A DNA stretch of 56,237 nt, filler included, from Sphacelaria rigidula (Eukaryota), in assembly GCA_964200075.2 (NCBI GenBank). It is 3 parts of 3 records of this genome, joined end to end, with 100 filler letters (N's around TTAATTAATTAA, not from the genome) between each part and the next. Parts side by side here need not be neighbours in the genome. Positions count along the whole stretch, not along the records: positions 18,789 to 37,472 come from CAXNAA020000815.1; 2 more parts are not named here. One strand, 5' to 3'. The notes beneath the pieces were generated by a model. That model searched no databases and was not told the DNA's origin. It saw only the letters and a list, made by a program, of their open reading frames with translations. The position numbers were made by a program, and so were the translations under genes. This document shows, in pieces, positions 1,074 through 36,031 of the stretch; positions within the stretch are counted from its first letter, which is position 1, and each line of letters starts with the position of its first letter.

Positions 1074-1074
<1 letters not shown>

Positions 1075-1114: not shown

Positions 1115-1116
<2 letters not shown>

Positions 1117-1453: not shown

Positions 1454-3450
1454 GAACCTGCACTGCTGTTGGAGGCTGTGAGTGGCGCCCGGTGCGGCGG
1501 CTCGCGGGAGCGCGGCGGCGGCCGCAGGGGTGGCTTTTGTGCTGTGGCGAGCAACTGTGGAGAGGGAAAGGGACCGTATGGTGCAGTTTCGTGCTGACCG
1601 GCTGCTGTGGAAGTACAGTGTGTGTTTGGCACGGGGCAGAGAACGGGCAGAGGGGGGGGAGGGGGGCGTTCACACAGGGGTCTGTAGCAATAAATTAGGG
1701 GTGACAGGCCGGAGGTCTTCCAGGTCATAAGGACTGACGATTTGATTACCCTAATGGGATGCAAAGGTTGCCAGCCAAATGTCGAGTTTTTTTTTTTAAT
1801 GACGACAATACACCTTACGGACAATAAGGGGCACAAGGGTCAAGAGCGAGATAAATAAAGGGATGATAAAAATAGCGATAGGGGGGGAGGGAGAGAGGGA
1901 TCTGTGATGATGGCGGGCAGTTCGGTCGTATTCCAATTCGAAAGCTGCAGAAGTTCATGTTTTCACAGTTTTTCTCAAGAACTGAGTTATGAAGAGTCAG
2001 CCGACGAGCAGCAGATCATGATAGATTCGTAATATTTAGTCAGGTGCTCAGGGTGAGATGCAGGAGGCCCAACATTCAGCGACGATGGAAGATGACCATG
2101 ACCTCGGCTATCCGCACACATCCAACTGAAGACTGAACTTGAACGCATTGTTTGGGTCATAGCTGTAAACGATCGAAGGGTCTTTGGGAGTTTTGACTGT
2201 TGATGTTTGTGATTTGGCCTGACCATTTGTGGCAAGTGTACTCCAGTGGTAACAGGCTGCTGGGTTTCCTCGGGTCGGCGAACTATACGAAAGACCGGAG
2301 CCGAGTGCCTGCGCACATAACCCAGTAGGGCAAAATGGGACAAGGGGTACGAGTATTTTACTCTACTGTTGTTGTACTGTCTTCGCAAACATCTGCTCGT
2401 GATGAGTTTGTTTTGCTCCGTCTTCCCTGTTGCATCATCCATGAATCGAGGCCACCAGAGGTAGATTATGTGTGAGGATCAGCTGCGACATGCCCTGCCG
2501 AAATCCGTTCTTCGGGGGCAGTCAAGCTATCCATTGAGTTACAGTTGCGTAATGTCACAGTACTGGTATGTAGAGAACAGTCAGTTCGGTAGATGACCGT
2601 ACGATAACAGTACAACAGTCAATTTCGAGGCAGTTCAGTCCCACCGTTGTAAGTACTGAAGCTATCTTACTTTCGCCAACTGTAGTAAAGAGTTACTGCA
2701 CACGTGTCATAGGATCTCGCTCACCAACGGAGCGAGCGTCACGACAACGTGCATTCTGTTGCACGCGTAGCTATCGAGGCTACCACTGACAGTCGGCACA
2801 CCTCTGGCCAAACGGGGGGCTTTCAACAGTTGGGTCGCATAAGTCGCTTTCGGTGGTCATGCATTGCCAGAGCAACTTGGTATTGAAATCTCACCTGACG
2901 CACACGCCACCACCCACCGCCCTCGGCGCGCATCTTGCGAATTTTACGAGAAACGACGACATGATTCTCGATGCTGTGATGCCGGGAGCTCGGACAAGCC
3001 AGGCAAGGGGCGGATAGGGGGGCAAAGGCAGGTGCGTGGCTGTCGTCTGAAACACTGTAGGGCACTTCTGTAGTAATTAAACTTATGCGTGTCATTTTGA
3101 AGTTCAGTCGCATGGCTCTTGTCATTATCCATGATCTTTGCTTGAGCTAGTGGGGGGACTTGGGGGGGAGGTTGAGCGCTGGATTTCATTCATACCATAC
3201 AACAAACTAGAGGCGCTAGCTACTGTTGCACCTGTCACCTATAGAGGTGCTGATTTTCCACCTGCCTGATACCCAAGCGCATACAGAACGACACACTCCA
3301 TCCGCAATACACTGGTTTTATCGTTTTCGTGGTTCATCATTATCGCTTAGCGATAGAGCAGAGAGTCATCACCGTTGGTTCGCGGAACGCAGAGACGCGG
3401 GCCTGCCGTGTTCGAAGACCGATTTTGCGGCGCTCTACTAGGAAATCATT

Positions 3451-6400
3451 ATGTCTTTCGATGATAAGGGCACGAGGCTCCACGGTCGACTGGAGTTTTT
3501 CGATCGCAACGTTACGCAGCTCACCAAGCATTTGGCGCAGATCGTCGGCCATCATCAAGGCAAGCGGTACTTTGATTTTCACGTTTTTCAGGGAAAGCAG
3601 TGCCCCGTGGACAAGCCCACATACATATGCACATGTAGCATACATATGCACATGTAGCCTGGCAAGCTACAACAATACAATATAGTACAGGCAGTAGGTT
3701 TGCTGTTGTCCTCGTGACGCGAACATCGCACATGCCAACATGTGGTTCGGCTGTAAATAAAGAGCATCGCAACGCTCCCTTTTAATGTACCGGTGCGTCG
3801 GCGTTGCTGCCTTTGTGGTACCGAGACGCCACAAGTACATACCCAGCACGCTGGTGATGAGACTGGATGCAATATGATCAACGGAGCTGAACTGCTGTGT
3901 GAAACACCTACATACTTACTCGGAGAGACCTTACTGATACCGCTGTAGATATCAATAGATGCTATTTAGGCGACACGAACAAGGCTGCACTTAATTGACA
4001 TATCTAGACCATAAACAAGCTCACAAAGCACCAGGGGGTTCAATAGACCGGAAGTTTGGATATCAACCCATCCCCCCCGGGGGGAAAGAAAAACTTCAAT
4101 TTTAGGCTCTCGAAAGTTGAAAAATGAAGAATCACACTATTATACTACTCGCTGCCTCATGATCTCAATTGATGCGTCCCTTACTCGCATGGTAACAGGA
4201 GCCCTTGGCTTCCGTTGTGTGGCAGTACAGTACTGATATCAGGAGTACATATACAAGGGTGTGGCAAAAATTATAAAAACGCCTTTAGAGTACTTTCTAT
4301 CTGGTTGTGGTGCTGCTGCAACAGCAGCATTTATTTTTAGTCGTACCCCCAGGCACCACCAGCAGGGGAGTGCTTCGTTCGCGAACGAGGCCCACGCACA
4401 GTAGCGAATACAGTGCAGGTCTATCTGGCCGATACATCGGTCTGAGGCAAAGCTCATGTCCCTGTTCAGGGTGGGTACAGAGTGGCGGGACGTGTGATAC
4501 ATATCGTTGGTGGAAAGCGGGCGAGTTTTACTGGATTGTAAGACGGGGGGCGAAAGACCCCGTTGGACGAGGAGTACAACGACCACCACCCCGACAGGGG
4601 GGTGGACAATGGCCAGGTTACAGATGGACAGTCTTGGGTTTGTAGGTAAGCGTGTCGGATATAGAGGGGGGTGGATATCATGTCACCCCCTATCTACGGC
4701 GGTATTAGCTCTACCTGGTTGTTTGCCGAAGAAAAAAAATCTTGATTCTACATGTCATGTAAATCCAACCTTTTCACCCACAAATCATCATCTATTTTCA
4801 ATTTACACTACAGTACAATACAAGTGGTTCACATGTTGACAACATTATGTGCAAATGACAAGATCTTAACTATTAAACGTCTCGGATATCGAGAGATGGT
4901 AATCACACTTGGAGTATACACCGATTTGTGGATCACTGAAGCGGACAACGGTATAATACGGCGCCTGTAAAACTTGATCGGAGGAGTCATACTTTAGTTG
5001 TAGGATAAAGACCAATTCTCTTTTGTCTCCTTTTGTACAGAGGGCGTGTCGCACGGTGTCAAGTTCAGCGCGCAGGTCAAGACGATAGCGGCACAAGAGC
5101 CATTTCCAGAACTTCAAGACAGACTCGTTGGCTTGTCAGAAATCACCGAAAGGATTGCTCTTGAGAGGAAAAACATCATGGTGAGACCTCCTAGTGAAGA
5201 GTCGTTCCTTAAGTCGTTTTCCTCCAATCTGCTGTCTAGTGCTAGATGGCCTGGCGACGAGTGCAACTCGACAAAATGGTCAAAAGGGAGTATTTTGTTG
5301 TGGCGAACCAGCGCGCACATTGCTTAGTGGAGATCGGTTGGAAAACGCAGCGCTGTTTTTGCTCTTTTGTGGCGTTGCTGAAGATACCCAACCCCAGGAT
5401 TTCCGTTAAACAAATTGATCTGACTGTCACACAAGGTCGCAGAATTGCTCAGAGCAATACCCGCGCGAGCTATGGAAGTTTCTGTATGGTCAGCAAGGCG
5501 ATCGTATGTCCAACGCTTCTCAAGTACCCTGTTGCGTGGGGACGTACATAACGTGCCCAGACAAATATCATTGCCCTTTCGCTGTGAGTACGCTCGTGCA
5601 CGAGTGGCGGTTTTTGGCGATTTTCCGGCTGTTACAGTTGATTGACAAAATCTTCGATCTCATACAATGGGAGCGACCATCTAGTACCACCGGTATCCGG
5701 AGGTCGCCAGAGAATTGAGTGGGGGAACCCAGAAATGATGCATTCATGGCAACCTTATTATCGAATGGCTCAGGGATACGACACGATGCGTGCGGAACGA
5801 TACAAAACAATCGGGTACGGTGGATACAGTATGAAGGGCTCTACTTACACCCAGCACGGGACAATTGACCGACTTCTTCATGTTATATTGCATTCGTCAT
5901 TCAATCTATGTCGTGCCGTCGATCTGCAGCACCATCGGGCAAATAGAGAAGTACTGGCAAAACTGGCCGACATAAGGAAACGCGTCATCACTCCGACTCA
6001 GGTGCGGCTATTCAGATGTGATAAGGGTATTCTCATCGAATGCACTACAGCACCCACTGCCACTTCAATAACGGCACTACCCCAGATACTCGCGTTCTGG
6101 TAAACGACGATATTTTTTAATATTATTACTCCTGGCCAGCGCACAGGTGTTCGAGCTCTAAAACTCGGTAGACCAGAGCGGTTCTACCAACGGCGTCTCA
6201 GCGATGCTACCTCAAGCACGCCAGTCGCACTCCCCCACGCTGATCACCCAATGCATAGGTATTTACACCAATATTCACCTTCGCCGATGGTGATCAACAA
6301 CACACGAATTGTGGTCTCGCTCACGCAGGCCTTGCTGCAGGACAGGGATAGCTGTGTCAAAACTTTACTGAAGGCCGAAGATAAAGCGGCAGGTGAGCAC

Positions 6401-8115
6401 ACCGTCGTCTCCGCGCCTCGGAAGGGAAACCGACAAATACGAGCACCGCGCACTCGCACCATGCGGTGCGGTAGTGACGGCGCGAAAGTTTGATTCATGT
6501 ATGTACTCTCATCGTCCACCCATCTTTTCCTTCGTACACGCTAGCCTGTCATGACCTCGTTGCAGGTTCGACAAATCCGACTTGTCGCGTGTCGCTGCCC
6601 GCAGCGATCACTTGTAATCGCTTATTTTCACCGCTGACCTAAATCTTATGGCAGCGGTTCTCAATTCGTTCATGTGTATCACGAGCTTACAGTTCGCAGC
6701 CGACCAATCTACAAGAGGTGGTATGGCGCCGCCTGTTCGTTTGACGACGGCATAGTTTTGGGCTCATCCTGGTTGATGGACAACGGACCGTTTGTGACAA
6801 CAGTGTCCCTCTTTGTTTGTTTCACCAATTGCCTTCGTGTCGTGGGCTCTGTGTAGATGATCGGGCGAACGGACTAAACGACGAGGCCGGCGTAGCGACC
6901 CTAGAACACCGCCACCGGCTGATGAACGTAGAGACCACGGTGGACAATAACTTCGAGCTCTTCGAGGCGCAGAGGGTAGAAGAAATTAAGGTGGCAGCAA
7001 TTCCAGCAAGAGATAATAAAGAGCCAACAACAAGTCAGGATACTCAGATCGCTTCCCCAACCGTTGATCAAGAAGCGGACATTTTGACGTTCAAATCATT
7101 GACCGTTCACTACAGGGCCAAACATTCCGCTTCTTGAACAAAAGATATGGTATGCGGTTCATCCCGGAATGGCAAATCAGAGATCTCCGGAGCTCTCCCT
7201 TCGCAGTCTCCCTGTTCACCATTCGAATTTTACGTCCAATCAATCAATCAAGAAGCGGGCATTTTGTCCTTTGAACCAGTGATTTTACTGGTTCAACCGT
7301 GAGCTGATATGCGTGATTTCTCGAGTTCTAACGAAGAGTATGCGACCGGTACAAAAGTGTTGTCCGACCGATTTTCCGCGTGCCCCCAGCCTACACCAAC
7401 ACTTGATCGGATGTTTCACAGGACAGCTACCCGTGAACGCTCCGACCATTAGGGTGGTGCAAACACTGCAAACATATGCACCTGCGCGGGTACTTATTTC
7501 GCGTCTTCACGACCTGTCCCCCTCCCACGTGTACGATCGGCCATAACCATCGCTGCAGGGTATATTGGAAGAGTTCCTTCGTTGCGAAATGTACTACCAC
7601 TGTCGAGCGCTGGAGATGCTAGCGCCGGCGCTGATGCACATCGGGGGAGTGGAAGCAGAATCAGCACGAGAGGTACGCTTGTTCTTCTACTTCCCTGACC
7701 CCCCAAATACTTTGAGAGTGGTTTATAAGATGGCCTCTGATACGTATCATGTGTTGAGTATATTGACTGGGGGAGCGTCTTTCAAGAAAGCGTGCCCGTG
7801 TGCGCATTCGTCACCGACAAGAATTCTGCCTCCATGGCATGTAGGTTGCGACCCCCACAGTGAGGGAGGGACCTGTGTAAGCACTACGTGTAGACATATA
7901 CCGCACATGCGACACGAGTATCCCCGGCTCAGGAAATCGTAACGTCATCATTGTCATGGCCCATCTTAAGGACGGGAACGAATCTATACGGTACAAGGCA
8001 GCTCTTTGCCTAAACGTCCCTGCCTCTGTCTCTTGCCTTCTTGCCTGCCCTTCGTACCTGGCAGCACGTACGGAAGGACATTGAGGGCATGAACAAGCAC
8101 CTGCGCTACACATGA
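3451..8115 (+). CDS. FAM92: FAM92/CIBAR-like (CBY1-interacting) BAR-domain protein, 7 exons, 227 aa
   Basis: Phase-consistent exons 3451-3559, 5041-5180, 5930-6001, 6329-6392, 6857-6990, 7559-7672, 8065-8115 (684 nt incl. TGA). The segment FEAQRVEEIKGILEEFLRCEMYYHCRALE resembles the FAM92 C-terminal BAR signature as I recall it (FE.Q....IK.I..EF...EM..H..ALE). Helical/coiled-coil composition throughout. Intron 1 is GC-AG, the others GT-AG. Confidence 0.8.
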
Positions 8116-9933
8116 CCGGACGATCGCGATTTCAACAGCTTTACGATGGAGGGAGCATTCGCCTGAATAAGCGCATCGGTGCATCAGGCGTGGAGCCTCA
8201 ATTAGAGTTGTGAATCGATCGCTTGCTTCACTCCATCAGAATCAGTTTTGCTGACCACACTGCTGCTCGACATGCCCATGGTACCGACAAGTAGAAAGCT
8301 TGTCGTTGAGCCAATTCGTGGTCAGGAAAATCGACACATCTCACTTTCCTGGTAGGCCTATGGAACAACACGATGGTACGTATGTTGGGTGTGAGCCAGG
8401 GTGACGAAAGGCGGCAATGCGCACATGAAGCCATTGGAGCTACAGTGGTCCCATGGCAGCCGTGGCAATCCTGGGTCTGCCTAGCGACCTTGGGGTGAAC
8501 ACTGGAAAACTCCTCGAAGGGCTATTTTGGGAGATACATTTCATGCTTAGATCCATGCAGTAGTCTAGTAGTTTTTTATGCTTACTGCAAATAGATTGCT
8601 CCCGCCCCTCATCACATGGCAGGATCGAGCGGGGTAGGATTCCCAGGGGTTACTGAAATGACCGGAAGAGACAGGATGCTCCAAACACGTGGTCAATGTG
8701 GTATCTTGCTGGACTTTCGAAGCGCATGTTTTTTGCCTGTATCCTGTGCGAAGATGTTCAGTTCATAGTTGCAGCGCGCACAATCGCGTGGGATTGATGC
8801 ATTTAGCTGTCGCCCATCACATAGGTGGACATGTTTTGCCGTGAGGACCTTGCGGACGACTATGTGAAAATTACTTGGACAAATATTTGATCGGTTGACA
8901 TTTGAGTGCTTTGAGATTCAGACTATTCGGGACGGATGCTAGTCCGGAATAGCTTGTGTGTTTCTACCACGCATCTATCCTTCCCCCCTCCTTCGGACGA
9001 GTCCGCCGTCTCAAGGAAACTCATCTCTACCCTGGCGTTGCCTGGTAATTTGTTTCCTAACATTGGGTCAGCACTGCCGTAGCCCATTTCTCTTTTTCGA
9101 TTTGTATGCTACTCACTTCCTCACGGCTCCCGCGCCGGAGATCAACAAAAAATAACATCAGTGCTGTCGGCATTTGAGCCCGCGCATCCATCCATACTGA
9201 CCGATGATGCACCAATTGGAGTACCAGGGCTCGGCGAGCTGTTGTGCAGCAGAACGATTGTGAACGAAGATGAAGTTATGCGTTCGGTAGTCATAGCGTA
9301 CTGTCATATCGACACGACTGTCAGTTCAATCGCGTTCCCTGTCTTGCATTGGAGGGGCACTTTCTTCGCGTCTCTTTGATATTATCAACATTCTGTCGTG
9401 TTTGTACGTTTCCTTTTCGGAGATTTCCCCTTTGGTGGTAGCTGTTCCGTTCCGTGTCCTGTATAGTTGCTCTCCGATTGTTCGTGGCAGGTATTTATCG
9501 ACAATGCAGTGTCCAGTGAGAAAGGAAAACGGATGCTTTGCCACGGCGTGCTATTTTTTTTCCGACACAGAGCTTGTGACTTCATGCTGAACCTACACGT
9601 TGCCATGTCCCTTCATAATATTTTCACCTATGTTGGTGCCAGAGAAACGAGTGTCCCAGCGAAGACAGTATGTATACTACTACGATCGAAGGGGTTTCAA
9701 TTTCTGCATATCACACGCGCCAGTGTACTTGAAGAAAGGACATCGTTACACAGAGATGAAGCAATGCCTGGGGAACACTAGCGACCAGGGCGTGTGAGAG
9801 TCCCTTACATACACACATTTGCCCGGATGTGAGCGGTTGGAGTCGGCGCCCTCCTCCTCGACACATTTACTCCCTGCAAAGACGTCACGATCCGCAATGA
9901 GTTACCCAGACACTCAGTCAATGCTGACCGAGA

Positions 9934-10091
9934 GTCCGAGTGGCTCAGTGGTTATTGCAGCGTCTTGATATCAACTACTCCGGATTCCCCCTAACTATTA
10001 CCACCGCGTCCTGGTGCTCTGAATTAAAAATATACTGGTGTACCAACAGCCCGTTGGCGCGAAAGGTTGCGGGTTCAAATCCCGATAGACA
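9934..10091 (+). pseudogene. Degenerate intron-containing tRNA-like sequence (apparent anticodon GAT)
   Basis: A box TGGCTCAGTGG (9941) and B box GGTTCAAATCC (10072). Anticodon stem GCGTC (9960-64) pairs with GGCGC (10056-60). Loop TT-GAT-A is followed by an ~84-nt insert at the canonical 37/38 position. The D stem and acceptor stem are mismatched, so it is called a pseudogene. Confidence 0.55.
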
Positions 10092-13000
10092 AGGTATCCT
10101 TGAGCAGAATACGGATTCCGTCGTTTAAAGCGCGCGGGTGTGATCAGCCAAGAAAATTCGACGGGAAGTAAACGCGGTGCACGAGTGCTGATGTGATCCA
10201 GGATACCAAAATATCAGGTAGGTGCCGCGGACAAGGATGACTAAATATCTCGGGACTACGGACTCCCCCCCGAAAAAGACGAGGTGTATAAAGCACGATG
10301 AAAAAGGTAAATATTATTTTCCTCAAATTATCTAAGGTATCGCGAAAAAAATTGGGGAGTTCAAGGTTGCCGTACCTCCATTAAATTCCGTTTCGGTGGG
10401 ACCCATGGCGCGTACAACGATGCCGACGGTATCGAAATAGAGATCGTTCAGAAACCCATAGCTCAAGCTTTCGAGAACAGAAAAACCAACATCCAACTAA
10501 AGTCCATAGGCGCTAGTGAGGCATAGTCTGGTTGGCATTGGAAAAACAGCCAAAACAACCAAATGTTCCAATTAAAAATACTTTACACAACGGTCGATTT
10601 CACGCAACCTGAAAAAATAATGGCACGTTCTCCTTGGTAGATTTCTCCTGGTCACCCCGGGGGACACCTTCTTGCATCTCCACTCTTCTAACCACAAGTG
10701 CATCCAATTTCATGCTCCTGGAAAAGGTAAAACGTCATCTTCAAGGTGCGATAGAACGTACCACATCAGACATTTCAACCCTACATGCAGTAGAAACCAG
10801 GGGATGGTTTCCTGCTGGTCACCTCGCCCCCCGCCGTGACACTACTGGGACATATTTCCACGCGTCTAGAAGAGCTGGGCGTCACTGACACGTACATGTC
10901 CAAACAGTACCTATATTCCGGCTTTCAAAACTGTACTTATATTTCCGGCAAGACTGGTAAAAAACAGGCGCAACCAGACGTGAAATGCCCAACTCTTCGG
11001 GGATTTATAATCGAATGTATGCATGAGTATGTTGATTGACAGTGTATCTCGAAGAGGATACTTAGCCTGAATGATAAGGCACTTATCGCAGAGCAAGGGC
11101 TTTTCCCCCGTGGTGTTCGACTGTAGCTGACATGAGTTGCGTGCTCTCCGAAATGCGCCTCGACGTTGTTCAGCGGTTCACCTTGTCGAACCTGATTGAG
11201 CGCATTTCACAACCCGCCATGAATGGTGTGTACCATAGCCAGATGTCCATAGGTACTGCGATAGGGTGCCTTGAGTTTCACGGCGCCTACGTTGCAGTGA
11301 GGTCGGTAACTGGCAATACCCTTACAACGTTCGGTCTACACTGATCAAACTCATCGTGACGGCTTTATTACGGTTTGGGACTACATAATAAGAAACAGAG
11401 TTGCCAGTTAACCTCCATCCAACAAAAATGTAGATGGTTGGGGAATTAGGGAGCTATGGCACTGCCATCAGCCCTTGTGCTGTTTTCTGCGGAGAATCCA
11501 CAGGGACAGCGGCTGCCAGATGCGTCTATATCCATTTTTGTCGACACCATTGACAACTTTACAATTATTACGCTCGACAATCCCGCCCGCATCGGGCCAC
11601 CTTTTCCCACCCAGGTCTAAAACTGGAGTGCAGTGCCAACAAGGTTTCTCCGCTAGTCTCCCCACTGCGTCGGTGGATACCCGAAGCATCAGTTTCTACC
11701 CAAGATACGCTTCCAACGGCAGACGGATGATGTTTGTAGCAGTGCGCCCCATCCGGTATCGCAGCTTTGCTACTAAACGATTCGTCTGGTTTCCAACTGC
11801 CCCCGGAGAAAGTGGGAGCGATACTCCAGGCTGTCCTGTGGGATTCAGTCAATCTATTCTAGTGCCTTGGCTGGTTAAATAGGAAAAGGGGTAGGGAGGG
11901 TTGACGGGAAAGGAGCAGGGTCGGCGGGAAGCGGAGCGAGGAACATGTTCAGTGTGGGGCACAACATGTTCACGGAATCTATGTAGTTTGTGACAGGGGC
12001 GTATGTTCGTAGTTTGTAACGGAAGATCATGAAATGACCTACGGAATCACCCCTCTGCGTGTACCGTCGCGCGCACAAGGCTCCGAATTCTCGAGGAAAG
12101 CAAGGAACACACGCTGGCTATGCAGCCTGGACGAATCAACAGTGAAGAAAATGCTTGAGGACCGCCGTCTACCGATCATCATTTTGTACCACAGTGAACA
12201 CGCGTGGGGTTCCCCAATAGGAGAGGTGCACCAGCTACATACGCACACCAACATACCCTGTCTCGTAACTGCATACGGCAGGTCCCGCCATTGAGTTGAT
12301 TTTCGTTAATGTGAACAGGACATAGTGCTGTTGCTAATCGCAGCCTGTGCGATGCCTATAGGTTTTCGGGAGGCGCGTGCACTGAAACTTGCTACATCGG
12401 CATACTACGGCGGGACACGCACCTCTTCAATTTGCATGGTCTAGACTAACTTAGTACAAACCTTGCGTCATCCCCGTTGAGCCACCAGCTGTCACGCCGG
12501 ACTTTTTTTTCCAACGAGCTAACGGATGTGTCCCTCGACCTGCAGCCCCGAAACTTGGCTTCGATGTTGCTCGTCCTCCTCCTTTTTATGTTTGCGGGTG
12601 TACTTGAATGAAGCTATAGCCGAGGCTGTGATGCTGCTTTATGTATACCCATGAACGGCATGCCGATACACGGGCAAAGCGGAGTTTTCCGACGTGTATC
12701 CTACATGGCACAACTTTTGACCTGTGGATAAGATTGTCGGCGGTCAGCAAGCGCAGCGTTGGGACATTTCTGGCACCTACTCTGTGATGATGTAGGGGAG
12801 CAGATTGTGGATGCGGCTTCCGGAGGGAAAGGCGTGGTTGATAGGTCGCCATTGGCGCGGAAAATCATCATACCCTTGTACTTCGTATTGACTCAACTGT
12901 CTGCAATTGAACCAGCTTTGGTAAGTGTGAACAGAGCCCCAACACAACAGCTGCAGGACGCACACCGCACCACTCCACTGCTAAGCTTTTCTGTTGTATT

Positions 13001-13388
13001 AGCCGTAGTTGGCACCCACCCACTTGAGGGGAAAATCGGCGCCGACAACTCGCCGCGCCAGCTGTTAATCCACCCGTCATATCTACACACGCATTTACAG
13101 CACTCCTCTCCACAACCGTACAGAATTCCTATAGGATAAGTAAAAGGGTCGCGACAAATGCTCACAGCATTCTGTACTGTCGTTGTGCTGTCGGTGTATG
13201 CACCGAAACATCATGTGTTTTTAGAGAGCAACATAACCATTCCGTGGCCGACCAAAACAACCTCGACAGTTCTCAACGGAGACAGCCCACGTCTCGTTTA
13301 GCCGCTGAAGACTATCAGTCCAAAATTTTCATGTGTACTCTCATGAGATATGTTTAGCTACTGTGCTCGGTATGCCGGCTATCTCAGC

Positions 13389-13688
13389 CCTGGCGAGCGA
13401 GGTTGGCGCGTGCGTAGCGGAGGAAGGGTGTGCAGAAAGGGTCGTCTTTACGCTCCACCTAGAGGTGATGAGGTCAACCCTGCAACCGGCCAGAATACCC
13501 GCAACATCTTTTCATTTGTGCAGTCCACATCTTTTCAAGTACTGCATTGATCCAGTTCAAACTTGGCATGAACAATCCATGGGATACTCAGAACAGTCGT
13601 GCTGAGTTTCTGGGTTTCCCAGACCTGACGGCCGAGGTCGGCGCGTGCGGAGCGAGGAAGGCGTACGCAAAGTGGTCGTTTCCGCGCG
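13389..13688. repeat. Diverged ~65-bp direct repeat, ~235-bp spacing
   Basis: GAGGTTGGCGCGTGCGTAGCGGAGGAAGG (13399) vs GAGGTCGGCGCGTGCGGAGCGAGGAAGG (13634). Confidence 0.6.
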
Positions 13689-14390
13689 TTTTGGCCCAAG
13701 GTGAACAGCGTCACCGTCCGTTCTAGGCTCGTACCGCATAGGTGAAAATAGTTCCACTTGCTCACGCTCCTCCATAGACACGTCATGGGTTCATATATAT
13801 CTCCTGGGGCTTGCACCTTCCTCGATGCTCAGATCTTGCCTGGTGCAGCTTGTGGTCCGCCCTACCATCGTCGGAGGCAAAGTCGAACTTGCTTGCAACA
13901 CGTTATTTTCCAGGTTGACCACCACAAAAAATAATCCAGGTACCCGCAGATACCGTCATATTTTTCATTCGGCGTTTGCTTCGGTTACATTTTGTGGGCA
14001 TAGTGAGTGAGTGACATGCATCAAGTACATTTGCCTCAACTAGTACGTGTGCGGTTTCTTATTCCATGGCTGGCTACAAAAATCAGTCTTTGAATGGCGT
14101 CTACGGTAATTACTCTTTGCATCAGTGACGTTCATACCGTAGTCATTTGGGAGTGTCTCAGGATAACCACGTGACATCCGCAAATACGCCTCCATATTCT
14201 TTCTGATTTGGATTATGACAATTCCAGCCATTGTTGCAGGACCTGGTGGGTTGTGTTGTCTACCGTACCGCGCGGTACTGTTTACCTGTACGTCTGTTAT
14301 ACAGCATTGCAGAGCGCATCGACTTTGGCCACACGGACCGCCTAGGAGATAACGGTAGTAGAACTCACTGTCTAGCTTTGCGAACAAGCA

Positions 14391-16701
14391 ATGTCCTCGC
14401 CAGCGAACTCGGACAGCCGCAGAAGTGATAGCGAGGAGGAGGAGAGCTCAGGCGATGATCAGCCGCTATTCAAATTTGCCTCACGAGGTGAGAGATCAGT
14501 CCTACGGTAGATGAGTGTATAGTGTGGCATACTTATTGTTGACGGATACAAGTATCGTACATCTGCTGTTGGTATGGTCGGTCGTGCACCTCAAGGGCTT
14601 ACTGCTATGCGTGTAGGGATCAGTAGGAAATGCGGGTCGGTTTGCTTTTTGACGATTGAGGCATGATGAGTCGACAACTTGAGGCTTGAAATTTGCGCGC
14701 TCTTTCCGAGTGTCGAATCTGTTCTGCTTTGTGTGCTCCCTCAGACTACGGTGTGTATACCGACTGGGCGTCCGAGAAGCAAATTCCACCCAAAGAGGAG
14801 TGGAGAATTGTGTACCCTCCCAATGCTTCCCCCATCTCCTCCCACACGCGAGTAGAGTAATTGCGTGTGAATTTCACTAAGGTGCAGGCAAGAAACCGCC
14901 GACTACGGTATGACCATTCCATTCTTGTTAAGCGTCCACAAGACGAGAAAGCAGAAACTGGGGCAGAGCACGCGACAGACGGGTCCCTCTGCTGCCGGAG
15001 GCAAAGGTCTACATGATTCCATCCCCCGGCCAAGTTTTGCAATCCCGATTTTATGGTCACCCTCGGTGTTCGCGCCGATGAAAGCTGTGTCGCTGGTAGT
15101 ACAATAACGTTTCATTACTTCGGTAGCGAGATCCATTAAATACTTGGCAAGACTCAGAGGAGTACGTGAACGGCTGTATAATAGGTAAATGTAAAGGACC
15201 TCCCACCATATTTGCATCGTCGACGCCAAACGATTACTCCATGTGCCTAGTACCTTGTTGTGGCCACAAGGTTGCGGCTTCGGAGTCTTGCCTTATAACC
15301 ACCACCCAAATGAATACATGTTGGAGTTCGGCAAAGTTGGGAGGAGAACGAAATGCTCCAAAATAGACCTGGAACGCGAGCACGATGCACGAACGCACGG
15401 ACTAGTCTTTCACTGGGACTGGGAATATGGAGGCCAAGTTTTTAATGGGCAAATCGCCTTGTCCATGGAGCACCCGACACCCTTTACACAAAATCACGGT
15501 TTTTACATCATTAGCATAGGGTGCATCATGGGTACTCCAGACACAACTTGCATCAAACGCGCAGCTTCTGCTGTTGAACGATGTTACGACTACCGCTGTG
15601 CGGTGTAGAAGACCATCGTCCGCTGGAGGGCCAGACAGGATTTCCCTCCGACGCGATTGTGATGGTGGGAGCGAGGCAACGTTCGTTAGGGAGATGTAAG
15701 GGTCTGTAAAGCCTTGCTCTAGTGCTCGCTTTCTTGGCATCAACTTTTACTCTCTTTCAGCGGAGCACAAGATGTTTTGGTTCGTCGTGGTGGTCGTTCC
15801 TCGCAAGGAGCTGAAAATATTGGTTGTGTTCATCTGGCAACAGCATCTTTCATATCAATGAAGCCGGGAGCTCGTGTTGCCATGTATTCGTTCATCGCAC
15901 CAACACAGCAAGACCCCAAAACGCGGGACAAATTTTATGCGTACAGTCTGTGCTGAGAAGACAGCAATCTTGTTGCTCTTGATGCTCTCGAATCACACCC
16001 GCAGACTTCAGGCCAAAAGCCGCATCCGAAGAGGATTCGGACGGAAGCGGATCTGGGAATGCCAGCTCGAACTCTGACGATTCCGATTCTGATGGCGCAT
16101 TCAATTCCTCTCCTGATAACAGGTATGTTACACACGAGGTGTTGAGACGAAATATTTTATTCCAACCGATCCTGTGAGTCACCACTCTGCGTCGGGTCCT
16201 TTGAAAAGTGCCGTGCATGGGGAGATGCGGCGACGGAATTGCAAACGGCAAGCTATAAGTGAATAACGGGGCTCTCGGAAGCAAATTCTGCAGTGATGCG
16301 AACCAAATGATGCTGCGACTTGGTTTCTGAGAGGAACACAAGACATATGATCTGGCAACCAGGAACACCACCCAAAAGCATTTTATGTCACACACATGCG
16401 CATATCACAGGTCGCGAGGCGCGTTGTTGACTACCTTAGAAGCCAGGAAGGCACGCGGTGGCGCCGTGGCCGCGGCTTCCGCCGCCAGTGGGGCCCGCGC
16501 GGGGAGCGCCAACGACTCGTTCACCCTGGACAGCTCGGATGATGACCACCAGATTGAACCTCCGCAACAACGGCGACGACTTATGGACCCCGAGGAAATG
16601 CTGGTGGAAGCGCGGCGGAGGGCGGAAGAGATGATTGCGAGTGGGGGAGGCGGGAGCGGCTCGCGCGATGCGGCGCTCGAGCGGAAACAACAGGCAAACA
16701 G
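14391..16701 (+). CDS. Unknown protein, 5' partial (acidic/Ser-rich N-terminus followed by a charged helical segment); 3' exons not found before the gap
   Basis: Phase-consistent exons: 14391-14487 (MSSPANSDSRRSDSEEEESSGDDQPLFKFASR, donor G|GTGAG); 16005-16122 (DFRPKAASEEDSDGSGSGNASSNSDDSDSDG..., AG|GTATG); 16411-~16701 (SRGALLTTLEARKARGG...FTLDSSDDD...EARRRAEEM...RKQQAN, probable GC donor AG|GCGAG). Confidence 0.7.
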
Positions 16702-16724
16702 GCGAGAGCTACTCGTGTGCGCAC

Positions 16725-17330
16725 TACTGGTGTGTGTGGGTGGAGGGAGGGGGGGCGTACTCATTTTTTGCTTGCCTCGTTTGACCATCGAACACTCATC
16801 CCTTCGAGACAGAGCACCGTTCCTACTCCTGCTAGAGACACCTCAAACGTTCAGGTGCTCATTTTGCTGCTTCCATACATTACACAAGAACCTTTCACGT
16901 ATTTTGTCCCCGTCCTGTTTCGCCGTCCGTGGCCACCATCCATTTAGTATAGCCATCGTTATCTCCCTACTGTCTAATGCATCAAACGATTTCATGCTGC
17001 CGTCGTTCACATCCCTCATTTCCCCTTCTAGCACGTCCCGTTCTTCTTTGCATGGTAAACATTCTGTCACCATGTGGGATCTGCTCTCTATTGCTTTGCC
17101 ACAGGGGCAATTTTGTGCATCTACTTCCTCCTCCTCTCGGCTACTGGTAAATATCTTCTTTGTGGCAGGTCCAGGTCCTCAACCCGAAATCACAGTTTCA
17201 TTTTTTTCGCCGCGTGCATTGGGCCATGCAGATGTGTTTCCATCCCTATCCCCTCTTTCATGCCCCCGTACATCTTCTAGTGCTCTTCCTCATTTACTTT
17301 GCGTCGGAGCGCTCCTTTTCCCCTTATTTA
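16725..17330 (-). mobile_element. Non-LTR retrotransposon (LINE) 3' fragment, degenerate
   Basis: The minus strand reads ...MKEGIGMETHLHGPMHAAKKMKL*FRVEDLDLP / ...EEEVDAQNCPCGKAIESRSHMVTECLPCKEER, a C-terminal CCHC knuckle (C-x-C...E...H...C) typical of LINE ORF2. The 3' tail GGGATG...ATGAGTACGCCCCCC is shared with other copies in the window. Confidence 0.7.
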
Positions 17331-17332
17331 TA

Positions 17333-17590
17333 CGAGCTGCGCCAGCCAATAGGTGGATTTGTAGTTTGCAGGCCCATTAGCCGGCCAATATTTAGAGTTG
17401 GACCATGAAATTTGGTATGGGTAATGCAAGAAAGAAAATTACTAGTGTACCATGTTTTTTCATGAGTTCAGGACAATTTACTGATACCTGAAAGCTGATT
17501 ATTGCCCTTAGCCCATGAAAAAAAACTTTCAGTAAACTCGTAATTTTTTTTTATGCCCTTTGCATTGTCTATACCAAATTTCACGCTCCG
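17333..17590. mobile_element. Truncated end of the CGAGCTGGGCC-TIR element family
   Basis: TA|CGAGCTGCGCCAGCC at 17331, followed by GCCGGCCAATATTTAGAGTTGGACCATGAAATTTGGTATGG, which matches 50947ff and 37918ff. Confidence 0.7.
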
Positions 17591-17594
17591 CCGC

Positions 17595-17888
17595 GCCCCG
17601 GTGGTGTAATGGTCCGACTGTCGTCATTAGGGTGGAGAGAACGGGGGTTCGATTCCCGATGCGTTGGGTTTTTTCCTCGTGATGTATGATTTCCACCGTG
17701 GAAAGCGTGACAACGTGAGTAAAAAAAGTAGTCAACTGGGTCTGTGTGACGTGAGTTGACGCATTGCGGGAGTGCTGACCCAATCCGCGAGATCAACATG
17801 AAAGGCACGTATCGGGGAGAGACGAGGTGATCCCTTGACGGACTCATCCCGAGGAAGGGGAGGGATTCAAAGTGTGTGTGTGAGTAGT
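17595..17888 (+). mobile_element. tRNA-derived SINE
   Basis: Head GCCCCGGTGGTGTAATGG (A box) ... GGTTCGATTCC (B box), no intact cloverleaf, ~200-nt body, (GT)n tail. The 3' end CTCATCCCGAGGAAGGGGAGGG.TTCAAAGTGTG recurs in reverse at ~37424-37460. Confidence 0.7.
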
Positions 17889-18029
17889 AACGGACAGCGA
17901 CACGCTCCACATGAGTCACAAAACAGCAGCGACTCTTCGAGATATATACAAGCCCAGAATATCTTCAATGTTTGTGCTATTCAGGGGGTTCTTCACCCCC
18001 TCCCTCAACTCCTTGAGTGTATGGTGAGA

Positions 18030-18335
18030 CACCCATGAGGCAGTGTATAATCTGTGGCTGTCTCTGGAAGTAGCGCTACTAGGAAATGAACCAACACATT
18101 GGAAGCTATCATCCAGATGCAAGATAATCAGTACGCTTCGAGATGAACAGTCTTAGCAGGATGCACCTCACCCTTCATGCGACTCGCCGAAAACACAACA
18201 GCGCTTCGCGCTTAGTGATTGAATGCGAGCCTGGTCCGGCTAAAACCCGGCGTGCTCTGTCCCGGCTTTGCAGGGATGCGAGGTCAACGGTCTCATGACT
18301 ACGGCATGCAAGATCATCAGTACACCCACCTCCCT
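18030..18335 (+). mobile_element. Retroelement 3'-end copy (GGGATGCGAGGTCAA...CATGAGTAC-C-rich tail family)
   Basis: Collinear with 35598-35830 (CATGAGGCAGTGTATAA...GGCTGTCTCTGGAAGT...AAAACCCGGCGTGCTC). Tail-only copies at ~31900-31970, 32775-32840 and 35525-35595. Confidence 0.65.
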
Positions 18336-18688
18336 GATGAACTATAGGAAGGCGCCGTAATTATCAGTTACAACCTAGAATCCGCCTTCTGGTTAATCTT
18401 CAAGCATAGAGTGGAGGTCCAACCACAGTGCAATCCTCGGCAGTACGATCTCCCATCACAACCCGTTCGAAATCACTCGTCACAAGCCCGATTAGGCGTA
18501 CTAATACCAAAGTCGTTGAACCACGAATTATGGTGCGGGGTCCCATTAACCCTTTTGGGACCGGACCCCCACCAACACAGGGTCAACCCTGTGTTAGTGG
18601 AATAATAAAAAATAAGTCTTCGAGCGACCTACCCAATCACAGGGAGGCGAAATTCATTGACCAGACCCGAACGACCAGCGCGGGGATT

Positions 18689-18788
18689 NNNNNNNNNNNN
18701 NNNNNNNNNNNNNNNNNNNNNNNNNNNNNNNNTTAATTAATTAANNNNNNNNNNNNNNNNNNNNNNNNNNNNNNNNNNNNNNNNNNNN
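18689..18788. other. Assembly gap with artificial TTAATTAATTAA linker
   Basis: 100 nt: N44-TTAATTAATTAA (18733-18744)-N44. The linker has stops in all six frames, and an identical linker lies at 37473-37572. Confidence 0.95.
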
Positions 18789-18913
18789 ATCTAGTCGGGT
18801 CCCGTTGATGTCTCGTGGAAGCGCGTCCCGCCCGTGCGTAGGCGTGACAAAGTTGTAGGGACGGTGGGAAACACGATCTGATTCGGTCCACGCTCCTTTC
18901 CAACACCGTGCAG

Positions 18914-18982
18914 GCATCCCATCGTCCCTCGGGCAGCTCGGGAACCTGCAGTATCTTAACCTCGGCTCCAACCGGCTGAGCG
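18914..18982 (+). CDS. LRR exon A of the ROCO gene (GIPSSLGQLGNLQYLNLGSNRLS)
   Basis: gtgcag|GC...AGC G|gtgagt; phase 1-1, 69 nt; LxxLxLxxNxL consensus. Confidence 0.92.
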
Positions 18983-21900
18983 GTGAGTGTGTGGAACAAA
19001 TCAGCGTGTGTGGGAGCAGGGGCAACGTCGGAACTGTGGAGGATGCGATCTAGTCGGGTCCCGTTGATGTCTCGTGGAAGCGCGTCCCGCCCGTGCGTAG
19101 GCGTGACAAAGTTGTAGGGACGGTGGGAAACACGATCTGATTTGGTCCACGCTCCTTTCCAACACCGTGCAGGCATCCCATCGTCCCTCGGGCAGCTCGG
19201 GAACCTGGAGTATCTTGACCTCCGCTACAACCAGCTGAGCGGTGAGTGTGTGGAACAGATCAGCTTGTGTGGGAGCAGGGGCAATGTTGGAACTCTGGAG
19301 ATGAGGTCAATCTGCGTCCCGTCAACAATGGCACGTGGGACTGCAAAAGGCGATCATCGTCATCTTTTCGTCGGTCAACCTCGGAAACCTCTAGTCGTGG
19401 AGAACAAATAAAGATATGCTGTTGGACCAGCCTACAACCGGCTTGTTATCGAGGTAATGGACAAAGGTAAACATATTGGGTATGAACATGAGATTTCGAA
19501 AACAGCTGATGGGACTATTTCGGAGGTGGATGAGGGCACGCGTCAATGCTGGAGATTATATTTTCGTCTCGTCTTCGGGAGCTTCACAACGTTCGCTTGC
19601 GATACTTTCATCCTCCGTTCGTCAAAACGCGTTTTCCTTTGGAGGTGTCCCGGCCATACGTCGGTGAGTAGGCCATCGCTGGAATATGGTGCCGTCTCCG
19701 ACCGCTTCGTACGTGAAGGGCGAGAACAACGTCTTGATGGTTGCTCGGAAACGTGACCTCTCCACCTCCGCTATGGTTCTGCTGTAGCTTGGAGTGGTCT
19801 TCGAACATTTTCGAAGGTGCTGCTCGTGATCGTGTGCAAAATGGACACCAGCATCGTAGGCAAGATGCGTCGCTGCTCTTGGTCTACACGTTGAATGGTT
19901 GCAGGTTGTCTTGGTGATGCCGGAATACCCCCTGCAGGTCATGCGGGGAATGTGCATCGTTCAAGCTCCCCGGCAGAAGCAGATGTTTACTTTGTTCACT
20001 GCTGTCGAAGTTCTCTGTATTCTTCACCACCTACCGATCACGCCGCGTGTCAATGCAGGACTTTGGAACACGCTTGGGCTGACGGATCAGGCTGGGTCAA
20101 ACGTGGCCGGGCCAGGTGGGTCGGATGAGTTGCCCGGCTATAAAAACATGCGGATATCTGATTTCGTTTCGTGGGGGTACATTGCTTATCGTTCTCTTGT
20201 GTTGTAGGAGCGTCTCACACTTGCGAAGTCGGAGGCTTGGATTGGGAAAACGGACTCTGCTCGAAGGTTCACTTTTATGTATGATGAACACACGGGTATG
20301 TCTGCTGAGCGTTCCAAGAATATTGATGCGGATCAAAGAATGTAATACCGTGTATTTTGCTCGACATGCTGCTCACTCGTGGCGTAGCCCTATCTTCGCT
20401 CACCATCTGTTGCATAACGGGAGGCTACTGTGAAGCGCAGTCTGATCGTCTCGTGCGTGCTTGTGTAGGCGGTGGAAACACTGATAACTCGCAAGGAGGA
20501 TATACCGGCCGGTCCATTCAGGGGCCGGTCGCCCCGGTTGCTCAGTAGGGAACGGAGCGATCTGGAATCTTTTCTCATACCATGCCCAACAGTGGAGAGC
20601 GTCTATGTCGTGGGTACACAAAGTTCGGCTCAACGGTCGACGAGGGAAGGAGATTGCTGAACCCCTGTCGCGATAAAAATGAAGAAGAAAAGCTCGTGTC
20701 TTGACCTTCCTCCTGTGTGACCCCGGCTGATGCACCCACATACACCGAAAGGTGTAGACACTGGTGCCCAGAATAAATGGGACGACAACACATATACCCC
20801 CGAATTGATGTTGGATTTCTCAGTAGGCACCAGGTTCAAAACAACCTGTCTGTGAGACTCGACAGCTCCGCCTCACCCGAAGAATGCAATGTCGGGAAAG
20901 CGGCCTGGTCGGTGTTGAGGCATGAGATGTGTGGGATGCACTCGATTGTACAACACGATGGTTCCATGTTTCCGCCCAACCACATGCTGTACGTCTCATT
21001 TTGGCTATTTCAAGGTACTCTCCCGGGAGCATTGGCCTCTCTCCTTGACATGTTCGACAGGACACGAATTTTGTACCTTGAGCAAAACCCGTGGGAGCAC
21101 CCTCCCGAGTCAATCGTGGCGGGCGGTATGTCGGCGGTGAGAAGTTACTTCGAAGCCATATTCAGCGACGGAACATCCACTGTGACCCGACCACTCAAGG
21201 TTGTCATCATTGGCAAGGAGACGGTTGGCAAGACAAGGTACGAGTTGCATTCCTCGTCTTGTGCATGGTCGACTTTGACCCCACCACTCAAGGTTGCCAT
21301 CGTTGGAAAGGAGACTGTAGGCGAGACGAGGCACGGCGATGAATCCTTGTGATTGTCGCAAACTACACCTAATGCTGCTGACAAGCCACAGAACGACCGT
21401 GCTAAACGGGTTTTTGTAACGTGGGAGAAATCTGTGTTGAAAGGATCGTGCACTCTCTGCACTGCCACAGTTTGCGGCGCAGCATCACGACCGGGAAGCC
21501 ATGCATGACCAGAAAAGGTGGTCAGGAAAGCACTGTCCACGTGGATGTCGAAGATCACACGGTCAATGGTCATCGAATTCGAATGTTTGATTGTGCCGGC
21601 CAGGTGAGACATTCTGATCCTATGGGTACGCTCACGTGATGTGTCGATGCACTTTTCCACTTGGAGTTGTGTGGTGGTCACAGACAGCTTTCATAGTTCT
21701 CTAGCTTGTCGCATGACATCTTCGCCTGGAATTGACACGGTGTCACTGATGTTCTTAGGCTCATACCGCGATCAGCTATAGTCAAATTACCGTCGATGCC
21801 TCGGTCTTGATGGTGAGAAGCAGGAGCCCACGGGCGAATTCGTAGTCTCGAAGTTCGGTATCATGTCGAGAACGCATCACTCCTGCTGCGAAGTTATTGC

Positions 21901-35173: not shown

Positions 35174-35524
35174 TAGTTGTTTGCAGCTGAAATACAGGAT
35201 TACTGTATTTTTTTCGTAGTCAACGATCTGCAACAATTTTTCGGGTGCCACCGCTCATCCAAATAAACTTTTGATGCCGAAGGTTGCTGATCGGGAGATA
35301 CTAAGTATCCGCGTCACACTCCGAACAACAATCTTCTCTGCGCTCGAAATTGAACAACTTATGTGCTGAAGTGACAGGGGGTGTTATTGATCGTTCTTGG
35401 TCCAAAATGCGTTTCTTTTTGGCTCTAGTGCGATGAATACGCAAAACTAACACAAATATCTGCGAAATCATTCACGAGAGCGATCGGGATTGGTTCACCC
35501 CCTCCCCCCCCCCCCCTCACCATG

Positions 35525-35890
35525 TCTCGAAAGGGATGCGTGGTCAATGGTCAAACGACTAAGGCAAGCAACAAATGAGTACGCCCCCCCCCCCTCACCA
35601 TGAGGCAGTGTATAAGCCGTGGCTGTCTCTGGAAGTTGCGATACCAGATAATGAAGAAACTCATCGGAGGCTGCCATTCAAATGCAAGATAACCAGTAGG
35701 CTTGGGGCTGAACAAGCTTAGCAGGATGCAGCTACGCGCTTGGTGATTGAGTGCGAGCGTGGTCCGGCGAAAACCCGGCGTGCTCCGTCCCGTCTTATGA
35801 CTATGGCATGCATGATCATGAGTACACCCCTCATCCCCCCCTCCGACCCCCGACACCCGACCCCCGACCCCCGAACCCCCCCCCCGATCC
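35525..35890 (+). mobile_element. Two adjacent retroelement 3' ends with C-rich tails
   Basis: 35525-35595 matches the reverse complement of 16740-16810. 35598-35830 matches 18030-18335. CCCCGA-like tail to ~35890. Confidence 0.65.
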
Positions 35891-36031
35891 TCCTTCAAGG
35901 ACCCGAGCCGGCGATATAACGTGCATTTCGGTTATGCGGTGGGTCATGATTGGACATTTTGACAGGAGTTTTGTATCATCAGTACGCAAAAATGCGCAGA
36001 AGCTGCAAAGAACAAAACAACAAAACCATCA

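What the first reader, a model, noticed from the sequence alone, without database searches (positions are those of the whole stretch)
18878..19268. Each LRR exon is bracketed by an inverted-repeat pair that covers the likely branch point
Seen: 6 nt into each intron lies GTGTGGAACA(A/G)ATCAG (18989-19004; 19248-19263). Ending 20 nt before each exon lies CTGATT(C/T)GGTCCACGC (18878-18893; 19137-19152). For the complete intron the arms are reverse-complementary at 14/16 nt, and the stem extends via CGTGT/ACACG with a 2-nt bulge. The 3' arm contains CTGAT, a branch-point-like motif about 32 nt from the 3' splice site. The only upstream-intron substitution between units lies inside this arm. Inference: in an array any 5' arm can pair with any 3' arm, either closing one intron or looping out one or several in-frame exons. 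This would be a competing-stem route to combinatorial LRR skipping, analogous to Dscam docking/selector pairing. At DNA level the arms could instead be cassette or recombination sites, or relics of a TIR-bearing intron-generating element. I am not aware of this having been described for these genes.
Basis: partly seen in the sequence, partly recalled or inferred. Interest (0 to 1): 0.8.

Follow-up and report, generated by a model that had tools for sequence, protein, structure and literature searches.

The report
Inverted repeat flanking duplicated LRR exons
Two freshly duplicated exon-plus-intron units of a brown-alga immune-receptor-like gene carry a short inverted repeat near the intron ends, which is real but so far looks more like a passenger of the duplication than a proven splicing switch.

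Summary
The sequences sit at the stated coordinates. The region is two copies, 95.7% identical, of a 259-bp tandem unit: a 69-nt phase-2 LRR exon plus a 190-nt intron. It lies at the truncated start of a contig, upstream of Roc and COR exons, so the gene is a brown-alga LRR-ROCO GTPase. That family's one-LRR-per-exon build, exon shuffling, alternative LRR splicing and a Dscam comparison are already in print.

The inverted repeat has a 13/14 Watson-Crick core and about 20 bp in all, -25.8 kcal/mol. As DNA complementarity it is uncommon: 5 of 2000 shuffles match it, and 0.5% of real 190-nt windows have one placed terminally. As RNA energy it is ordinary: intron z = +0.14, terminal duplex matched by 114 of 1000 shuffles.

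The two units count as one independent observation. The arms hold 3 of the 6 intronic substitutions, none compensatory. No other intron of the gene has the arms, and neither does the one other exon-per-LRR array I could fetch.

Most likely this is one intronic hairpin copied with its unit. That automatically creates competing pairings of unknown effect. Exon skipping and DNA rearrangement could not be tested.

The parts
18789..19047 (+). Tandem unit 1 (259 bp); starts exactly at the first base of the second contig in the window, so the array is cut off upstream
   Evidence: TRF period 259, 2.0 copies, 95%; N/linker map; blastn 95.65% over 253 nt
19048..19300 (+). Tandem unit 2; similarity to unit 1 ends at 19300/19301
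18871..18893 (+). 3' arm, copy 1 (core 18878-18893 plus ACACG extension); contains CTGAT
18914..18982 (+). LRR exon 1, 69 nt, phase 2, GIPSSLGQLGNLQYLNLGSNRLS(G)
   Evidence: an RNA-like contig joins at about 18983 to a related LRR exon
18989..19009 (+). 5' arm, copy 1 (core 18989-19004 plus CGTGT extension)
18983..19172 (+). Complete LRR intron (190 nt, GTGAGT...CAG) closed by the arm pair 18989-19009 / 19130-19152
19130..19152 (+). 3' arm, copy 2 (CTGAT A at 19140, 32 nt before the 3' splice site)
19173..19241 (+). LRR exon 2, 69 nt; 5 differences from exon 1, all amino-acid changing (Q>E, N>D, G>R, S>Y, R>Q)
19248..19268 (+). 5' arm, copy 2; its own intron (19242-20058) has no matching 3' arm
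20059..20115 (+). 57-nt phase-2 linker exon (LWNTLGLTDQAGSNVAGP). The 3' end is shown by a GT..AG joint; the 5' end is inferred from AG, phase and fit to the homologue consensus
   Evidence: joint 20113>21013 (cut +2) in X5/X6 only; consensus; sequence
21016..21237 (+). Last LRR/cap plus Roc P-loop exon (…LKVVIIGKETVGKT)
   Evidence: joints 20113>21013 and 21235>21469 in RNA-like runs; sequence; consensus
23283..24012 (+). COR-domain exon of the same gene
   Evidence: Pfam COR-B, E = 2.5e-06; 33 brown-alga ROCO homologues, best 69% identity

Best explanation
The locus is the 3' end of an LRR-exon array in a brown-alga LRR-Roc-COR (ROCO) GTPase gene. One 190-nt intron carries an imperfect inverted repeat close to its two ends. 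The 259-bp exon-plus-intron unit was tandemly duplicated very recently. The same two arms therefore now lie on both sides of each exon.

The bracketing is thus a by-product of duplicating a stem-bearing intron, the route Ivanov and Pervouchine proposed for the origin of competing RNA structures. In the pre-mRNA the arms can form either an intron-closing or an exon-enclosing helix. There is no sign yet that selection maintains them. I take the pair to be a passenger whose effect on splicing is neutral, or at most mildly inhibitory because it must be melted to free the branch-point region.

Shown: the gene identity, the duplication, the arms, their pairing potential, and use of a 5' splice site like that of exon 1 in a related unit. 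Inferred: the passenger status.
For: - Two units are 95.7% identical and the contig starts in the array.
- ROCO identity: COR-B Pfam hit, P-loop exon, and 33 brown-alga ROCO homologues.
- The arms are not conserved above background. They carry 3 substitutions in 44 arm nt against 3 in 138 other intron nt (Fisher p = 0.15). None is compensatory, one is A-U>G-U, and two break pairs.
- RNA-level energy is ordinary. Intron z = +0.14, with 108 of 200 shuffles folding as well. The terminal duplex is matched by 114 of 1000 shuffles. 151-nt segments around the exons give z = -0.85 and -0.54.
- Inverted repeats of this quality are common in this genome: 42 in 56 kb.
- There is no second copy of the unit or arms in the window, and none of 4 other intron 3' ends or 3 intron 5' ends of the gene is similar.
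- The six introns of the independent exon-per-LRR array L002 have no inverted repeat above shuffles (44 to 267 of 500 shuffles as good).
- The end of unit similarity (19300) lies 32 nt beyond the arm, so the arms are not the duplication junctions.
- The published model of duplication-made competing stems: PMC6071210, abstract and discussion read.
Against: - As DNA complementarity the repeat is unusual. 5 of 2000 shuffles match it anywhere and 0 of 2000 terminally. Only 0.53% of real 190-nt windows have one so placed.
- The arm-to-arm segment around exon 1 folds with z = -2.80, 1 of 200 shuffles. Those ends were chosen to fit the arms, and exon 2 gives only -1.07.
- The helix continues into a second pairing between the 3' splice-site region and the exon end plus 5' splice site.
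- The two-unit fold gives the exon-2 hairpin probability 0.88.
- Alternative LRR-exon combinations are reported for Ectocarpus ROCO genes (PMC11378527, passages).
- With one independent sequence, absence of covariation is weak evidence.
Confidence: 0.55

Rival explanations
1. The arms are a functional RNA switch. Competing helices between equivalent arms either close an intron or enclose an exon, hiding its branch-point region and its 5' splice-site flank. This would yield variable in-frame LRR-exon skipping, since all exons are phase 2-2.
For: - All four arm combinations pair, at -19.8 to -25.8 kcal/mol.
- The exon-enclosing hairpins appear in the MFE and centroid folds, with z = -2.80 for exon 1.
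- The exon-2 hairpin has P = 0.88 in the two-unit ensemble.
- Terminal placement is rare by chance.
- The stem is too close to the splice sites to be compatible with the yeast A-complex limits, so if formed it should block that site (PMC12350175, methods passage).
- LRR-exon alternative splicing is reported in Ectocarpus.
Against: - No covariation or extra conservation between the units.
- The arms are absent from the last LRR intron's 3' end and from all other introns of the gene.
- The arms are absent from the L002 array.
- Folding energies are not better than shuffles for the intron or for the wider exon segments.
- No exon-skipping joint was among the 15 of 221 joints shown, which neither supports nor excludes it.
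Confidence: 0.22
2. The arms act at the DNA level as short inverted repeats that flank an exon cassette. Recombination or template switching between them would flip the exon with its splice sites. That would give the reverse-strand LRR exons with intact splice sites, and the exon shuffling, reported for Ectocarpus ROCO genes.
For: - The signal is stronger for strict Watson-Crick complementarity (5 of 2000) than when G-U pairs are allowed (200 of 2000) or for RNA energy. This is what a DNA-level repeat would give.
- Zambounis et al. report intact LRR exons on the non-coding strand of 19 ROCO loci and leave the mechanism open (PMC3341825, sections 15 and 27 read).
- The arms enclose exactly the exon plus both splice sites.
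Against: - There is no reverse-strand LRR exon or unit fragment anywhere in the window.
- The arms are only 13 to 14 of 16 identical and short.
- The edge of the duplicated unit is not at an arm.
- DNA contigs gave no listed inversion joint at the arms among the rows shown, which is not informative.
- The L002 array has no such repeat.
Confidence: 0.1
3. The arms are the terminal inverted repeats of a small DNA transposon (MITE or introner-like element) that created or colonised this intron before the unit was duplicated.
For: - A 164-bp segment (18989-19152) is bounded by arms of about 21 bp, within an intron.
- The window holds several MITE-like elements with long inverted repeats.
- Introners with terminal inverted repeats and target-site duplications are known from algae and other eukaryotes (search listing only).
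Against: - There is no target-site duplication. The flanks read GTGAGT and TCCTTT.
- There is no other copy of the segment in 56 kb.
- The arms are inset 6 and 20 nt from the splice sites rather than supplying them.
Confidence: 0.06

Closest known systems
Brown-alga LRR-ROCO genes with one LRR per exon (Zambounis et al. 2012, PMC3341825; Teng et al. 2024, PMC11378527)
   Same: - LRR exons followed by Roc and COR domains, with phase-2 exons that each encode one plant-type LRR.
- Near-identical repeated exon-intron units, with amino-acid changes at the variable LRR positions.
- Best protein matches are Ectocarpus, Scytosiphon, Laminaria and Pylaiella ROCOs.
- Both papers already discuss exon shuffling. 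Teng et al. also report alternative LRR splicing and draw the Dscam comparison.
   Different: - The two exons here are 69 nt (G-x-P start), not the 72 nt described.
- Neither paper's main text contains 'inverted repeat', 'hairpin' or 'secondary structure'. Their supplements were not seen.
Competing RNA structures made by tandem exon-plus-intron duplication (Ivanov and Pervouchine 2018, PMC6071210)
   Same: - A tandem duplication that includes intron sequence with a stem multiplies the complementary sites.
- This creates alternative pairings that can loop an exon out.
   Different: - In that model one arm is duplicated against a fixed docker, which gives mutually exclusive exons.
- Here both arms are inside the unit, so every unit has both. 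The predicted outcome would be skipping, and no splicing outcome is shown.
Dscam1 docking-site / selector-sequence system
   Same: - An array of similar in-frame exons with intronic complementary elements that could compete (listing and abstracts).
   Different: - No unique docking site, no evidence of mutual exclusivity, and no conservation or covariation of the pairings.
Yeast intron zipper stems (Rangan et al. 2025, PMC12350175)
   Same: - A stem between the 5' part and the branch-point part of one intron that shortens the effective distance.
   Different: [quoted passage not shown]
- Here the stem starts at +7 and overlaps CTGAT.
Introner / MITE-derived introns
   Same: - Inverted repeats near the two ends of a short intron.
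   Different: - No target-site duplication, no dispersed copies in the window, and arms inset from the splice sites.

Membership tests
Brown-alga LRR-ROCO GTPase | LRR region followed by Roc GTPase and COR domains in one gene | tested here: met
   LRR exons 18914-19241; P-loop exon 21016-21237; COR-B Pfam hit, E = 2.5e-06; homologues carry PF08477 and LRR families
Brown-alga LRR-ROCO GTPase | Each LRR on its own phase-2 exon of 72 nt | tested here: inconclusive
   One LRR per exon and phase 2 are met, but both exons are 69 nt. RNA-like contigs joining here carry 72-nt-type neighbours (table 5c).
Brown-alga LRR-ROCO GTPase | Closest relatives are brown-alga ROCO proteins | tested here: met
   33 hits, best 69% identity, in Ectocarpus spp., Scytosiphon, Laminaria, Pylaiella and Sphacelaria
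Dscam-type docking/selector control | One docking site complementary to a selector next to each variable exon | tested here: not met
   Both arm types recur in every unit; there is no single docker
Dscam-type docking/selector control | Pairings conserved or covarying | tested here: not met
   3 substitutions in the arms and 0 compensatory; only one independent sequence, so power is low
Dscam-type docking/selector control | Mutually exclusive inclusion of array exons | not testable with these tools
   Only 15 of 221 joints from the laid runs were shown
Duplication-generated competing RNA structures | Tandem duplication covering the exon and flanking intron with a stem arm | tested here: met
   259-bp unit, 95.7% identical, with both arms inside it
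Duplication-generated competing RNA structures | Alternative splicing outcome linked to the pairings | not testable with these tools
   No isoform-level data were obtainable
Zipper stem | [quoted passage not shown] | tested here: not met
   The stem starts 6 nt into the intron and covers CTGAT. The alternative CCAAC lies about 10 nt after the stem (limits). The branch point itself is unmapped.
Introner / MITE intron | Target-site duplication flanking the inverted repeats, and dispersed copies | tested here: not met
   Flanks are GTGAGT and TCCTTT; no other copy in the window; the genome-wide test was not possible
Exon circularisation by flanking complementary sequences | Back-splice junction reads | tested here: inconclusive
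   One backward joint, 19242>18917, in X5 (table 5c). Its inserted letters fit a neighbouring 72-nt LRR exon of a longer or paralogous array, so linear splicing explains it.

The most novel reading that the evidence does not exclude
Short inverted repeats that enclose each LRR exon with its splice sites are the missing cis-element of brown-alga LRR diversification. They could act as RNA, looping exons out to give combinatorial receptors. Or they could act as DNA, flipping or excising exon cassettes, which would explain the reverse-strand intact LRR exons whose origin Zambounis et al. left open.
Probability: 0.12. Interest if true: 0.75.

Novelty: new member of a known kind. Interest (0 to 1): 0.3.

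Why it matters
[quoted passage not shown] How their repeat exons are shuffled and alternatively combined is unexplained (PMC3341825, section 27). A cis-element that brackets each exon would make that question directly testable. On present evidence the element is seen in one recently duplicated intron family only. For now its value is a concrete, cheap hypothesis to check across the many brown-alga genomes now available, not a finding about mechanism.

Tried and rejected
- **Whole genome:** none is held for this window.
- **Sequencing runs:** no RNA holder is listed. X5-X8 are only guessed to be RNA.
- **Laid reads:**
  - Only 15 of 221 joints and 40 of 652 letter differences were shown, and none of the latter falls in 18789-19294. 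Arm variation among other units and exon skipping could therefore not be read.
  - Word depth over the LRR unit is far above neighbouring bins in the DNA-like runs. The tool states this is no copy number, so I did not use it.
- **Metagenome scan with a COR-exon alignment:** 69 pattern matches, none confirmed.
- **LRR-exon DNA pattern:** I built it from the window's 69-nt exons, so it fits only G-x-P exons and misses the usual 72-nt type. That was my error, and it used the last metagenome scan.
  - It gave 4 loci: 3 are intronless LRR genes and 1 (L002) is a true exon-per-LRR array.
  - The same pattern gave 19 bacterial loci in genome contigs and 0 in viral contigs.
- **Antisense-ORF protein search:** a search with the open antisense frame across the units, meant to recover intron sequence of other units, had 0 hits.
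- **Apparent similarity to another intron:** by eye the LRR-intron 3' end resembled the intron before 21016. This was rejected, because 79 of 500 shuffles score as well.
- **L002 internal hairpin (ACTCG/CGAGT) and its GTGAGTG/CACTCAC pairing:** not above shuffles, and variants are not compensated.
- **Rfam:** no family in the window.
- **ARAGORN:** no tRNA in 18789-24700.
Full report
**What is there**

The window is three contigs joined by N44-TTAATTAATTAA-N44 linkers: 1-18688, 18789-37472 and 37573-56237. The finding lies at the very start of the second contig. Tandem Repeats Finder reports a 259-bp period with 2.0 copies at 95% over 18789-19300. blastn gives 95.65% identity over 253 nt and no further copy on either strand of the window.

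Each unit is a 69-nt exon plus a 190-nt GTGAGT...CAG intron. The exons are 18914-18982 and 19173-19241, and the complete intron is 18983-19172. The exons are phase 2 at both ends. They encode GIPSSLGQLGNLQYLNLGSNRLS and GIPSSLGQLGNLEYLDLRYNQLS. Because the contig begins inside the repeat, the array is truncated and only two exons can be seen.

**Which gene**

Downstream on the same strand lie four further exons:
- a 57-nt phase-2 linker exon (20059-20115);
- an exon with the last LRR and a P-loop, ...LKVVIIGKETVGKT (21016-21237);
- further Roc exons;
- a COR exon (23283-24012).

The COR exon hits Pfam COR-B at E = 2.5e-06. It also finds 33 proteins, all from brown algae or unnamed eukaryote sets. 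The best is 69% identical, in Ectocarpus, and one is named 'LRR-GTPase of the ROCO family'. The consensus of 16 aligned sequences matches the linker and cap exons.

Contigs of two runs that behave like RNA carry GT..AG joints at 20113>21013 and 21235>21469, which the two DNA-like runs lack. One such contig joins at about 18983 to a related LRR exon, so a 5' splice site like that of exon 1 is used in a related unit. The gene is therefore a brown-alga LRR-ROCO GTPase.

**The observation**

For the complete intron the 16-nt arms are 14/16 complementary. With the CGTGT/ACACG extension and a 2-nt bulge, RNAduplex forms 20 pairs at -25.8 kcal/mol. The other three arm combinations give -23.8, -21.6 and -19.8. 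CTGAT lies in the 3' arm, with its A 32 nt before the 3' splice site.

**Is it more than chance?**

| Measure | Result |
|---|---|
| Ungapped Watson-Crick inverted repeat (13 of 14), anywhere in intron | matched by 5 of 2000 dinucleotide shuffles |
| Same, in terminal position | 0 of 2000 |
| With G-U allowed, anywhere / terminal | 200 / 37 of 2000 |
| RNAduplex between first 45 and last 65 nt | -34.0 observed against -28.2 ± 4.7; 114 of 1000 as good |
| Whole-intron MFE | -66.0, z = +0.14 |
| Real sequence: repeats at least this good within 200 nt | 42 in the window |
| Real 190-nt windows containing one / terminally placed | 4.5% / 0.53% |
| Arm-to-arm fold around exon 1 / exon 2 | z = -2.80 / -1.07 |
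| 151-nt segments not trimmed to the arms | z = -0.85 / -0.54 |
| Two-unit ensemble: exon-2 hairpin / intron-closing helix | mean pair probability 0.88 / about 0 |

In the arm-to-arm folds the helix continues into a pairing between the 3' splice-site region and the exon end plus 5' splice site. Overall the repeat is real and somewhat unusual as DNA complementarity. As an RNA fold it is unremarkable.

**Conservation**

The two units differ at 11 aligned positions:
- Five are in the exon. All change the amino acid at variable LRR positions, as expected for this family.
- Six are in the intron, and three of those lie in the 44 nt of the arms. One turns A-U into G-U and two break pairs; none is compensatory.

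This gives 3 of 44 in the arms against 3 of 138 elsewhere (Fisher p = 0.15). Nothing indicates constraint, and power is low.

The 5' arm of the last unit has no partner at the 3' end of its own 817-nt intron. None of four other intron 3' ends or three intron 5' ends of the gene resembles the LRR intron.

The only other exon-per-LRR array I could obtain is the metagenome contig L002. It has seven exons and six conserved introns of 85 to 97 nt, from an unidentified eukaryote. It has no inverted repeat above shuffles, with 44 to 267 of 500 shuffles as good. My search pattern fitted only 69-nt exons, which limited this sample.

**Literature**

- Zambounis et al. 2012 (PMC3341825; passages and sections 15 and 27 read) describe the one-LRR-per-exon structure, exon shuffling, and intact reverse-strand LRR exons in introns. 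They state that the mechanism is unknown.
- Teng et al. 2024 (PMC11378527; passages read) add alternative splicing with different LRR combinations and make the Dscam comparison.
- Neither main text contains 'inverted repeat', 'hairpin' or 'secondary structure'. Two further searches found no paper linking brown-alga LRR introns with such repeats. Supplements were not available.
- Ivanov and Pervouchine 2018 (PMC6071210; abstract and discussion read) propose that tandem duplication of an exon with a stem-bearing intron creates competing structures.
- Rangan et al. 2025 (PMC12350175; passages read) give steric limits for yeast zipper stems. [quoted passage not shown]

**How it most likely works**

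One intron acquired a terminal inverted repeat, by chance or by a small DNA-level event. Duplication of the 259-bp unit then copied both arms, so each exon became bracketed. That step is shown by the sequence.

In the transcript the arms can pair in several registers (computed). Because the helix sits within 6 nt of the 5' splice site and over CTGAT, a formed helix should hinder rather than help use of those sites (inferred from the yeast limits). It could favour skipping of the enclosed exon (inferred, untested).

I put 0.55 on the passenger reading. I put 0.22 on a selected splicing switch, 0.10 on a DNA-level cassette role and 0.06 on a transposon relic.

**Verdict**

The gene architecture and the idea of combinatorial LRR usage are already published, while the arm pair itself is not, as far as my searches reach. 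It rests on one young intron family and deserves a cheap genome-wide check before any claim of function.

Noticed in passing
window 18689-18788 and 37473-37572: The window is three unrelated contigs of nearly equal length (18688, 18684 and 18665 bp), joined by N44-TTAATTAATTAA-N44 linkers. Features must not be read across these joins.
   Followed up: yes
window 18914-18982, 19173-19241: Both LRR exons are 69 nt (G-I-P start, 23 residues plus a split codon), not the 72 nt described for brown-alga ROCO genes. RNA-like contigs joining here carry 72-nt-type neighbours (G-x-V-P).
   Followed up: partly
window 20571-20768 (and 22947-23144): Intronic stretches where very many contigs of all four laid runs pile up, with loose ends ending in GGTTCGATTC-like letters. 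This is probably a high-copy dispersed repeat. ARAGORN finds no tRNA there.
   Followed up: partly
window about 21270-21340: Inside the intron after the P-loop exon lies a diverged partial copy of that exon's end (…PLKVAIVGKETVGET against …PLKVVIIGKETVGKT). It is a local exon-fragment duplication or pseudo-exon.
   Followed up: no
window 518-707, 36983-37138, 37945-38145, 17406-17583: Long near-perfect inverted repeats with 24 to 66-nt arms and 150 to 200-nt spans, typical of MITE-like elements. The arms at 17406 and 37945 begin with the same GAAATTTGGTATGG motif.
   Followed up: no
L002 2134-3165: A metagenome contig carries seven LRR exons (one of 69 nt, six of 72 nt) separated by 85 to 97-nt introns. 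The introns share a strongly conserved core (…CGCTTGATTGCAATTGGTAAACGAG…) and a run of ACTCAC motifs before the 3' splice site. The organism was not identified.
   Followed up: partly
window 1010-1669 (-): An open frame with an RRM_1 domain (E = 7.9e-07) lies on the first contig. It is unrelated to the finding.
   Followed up: no
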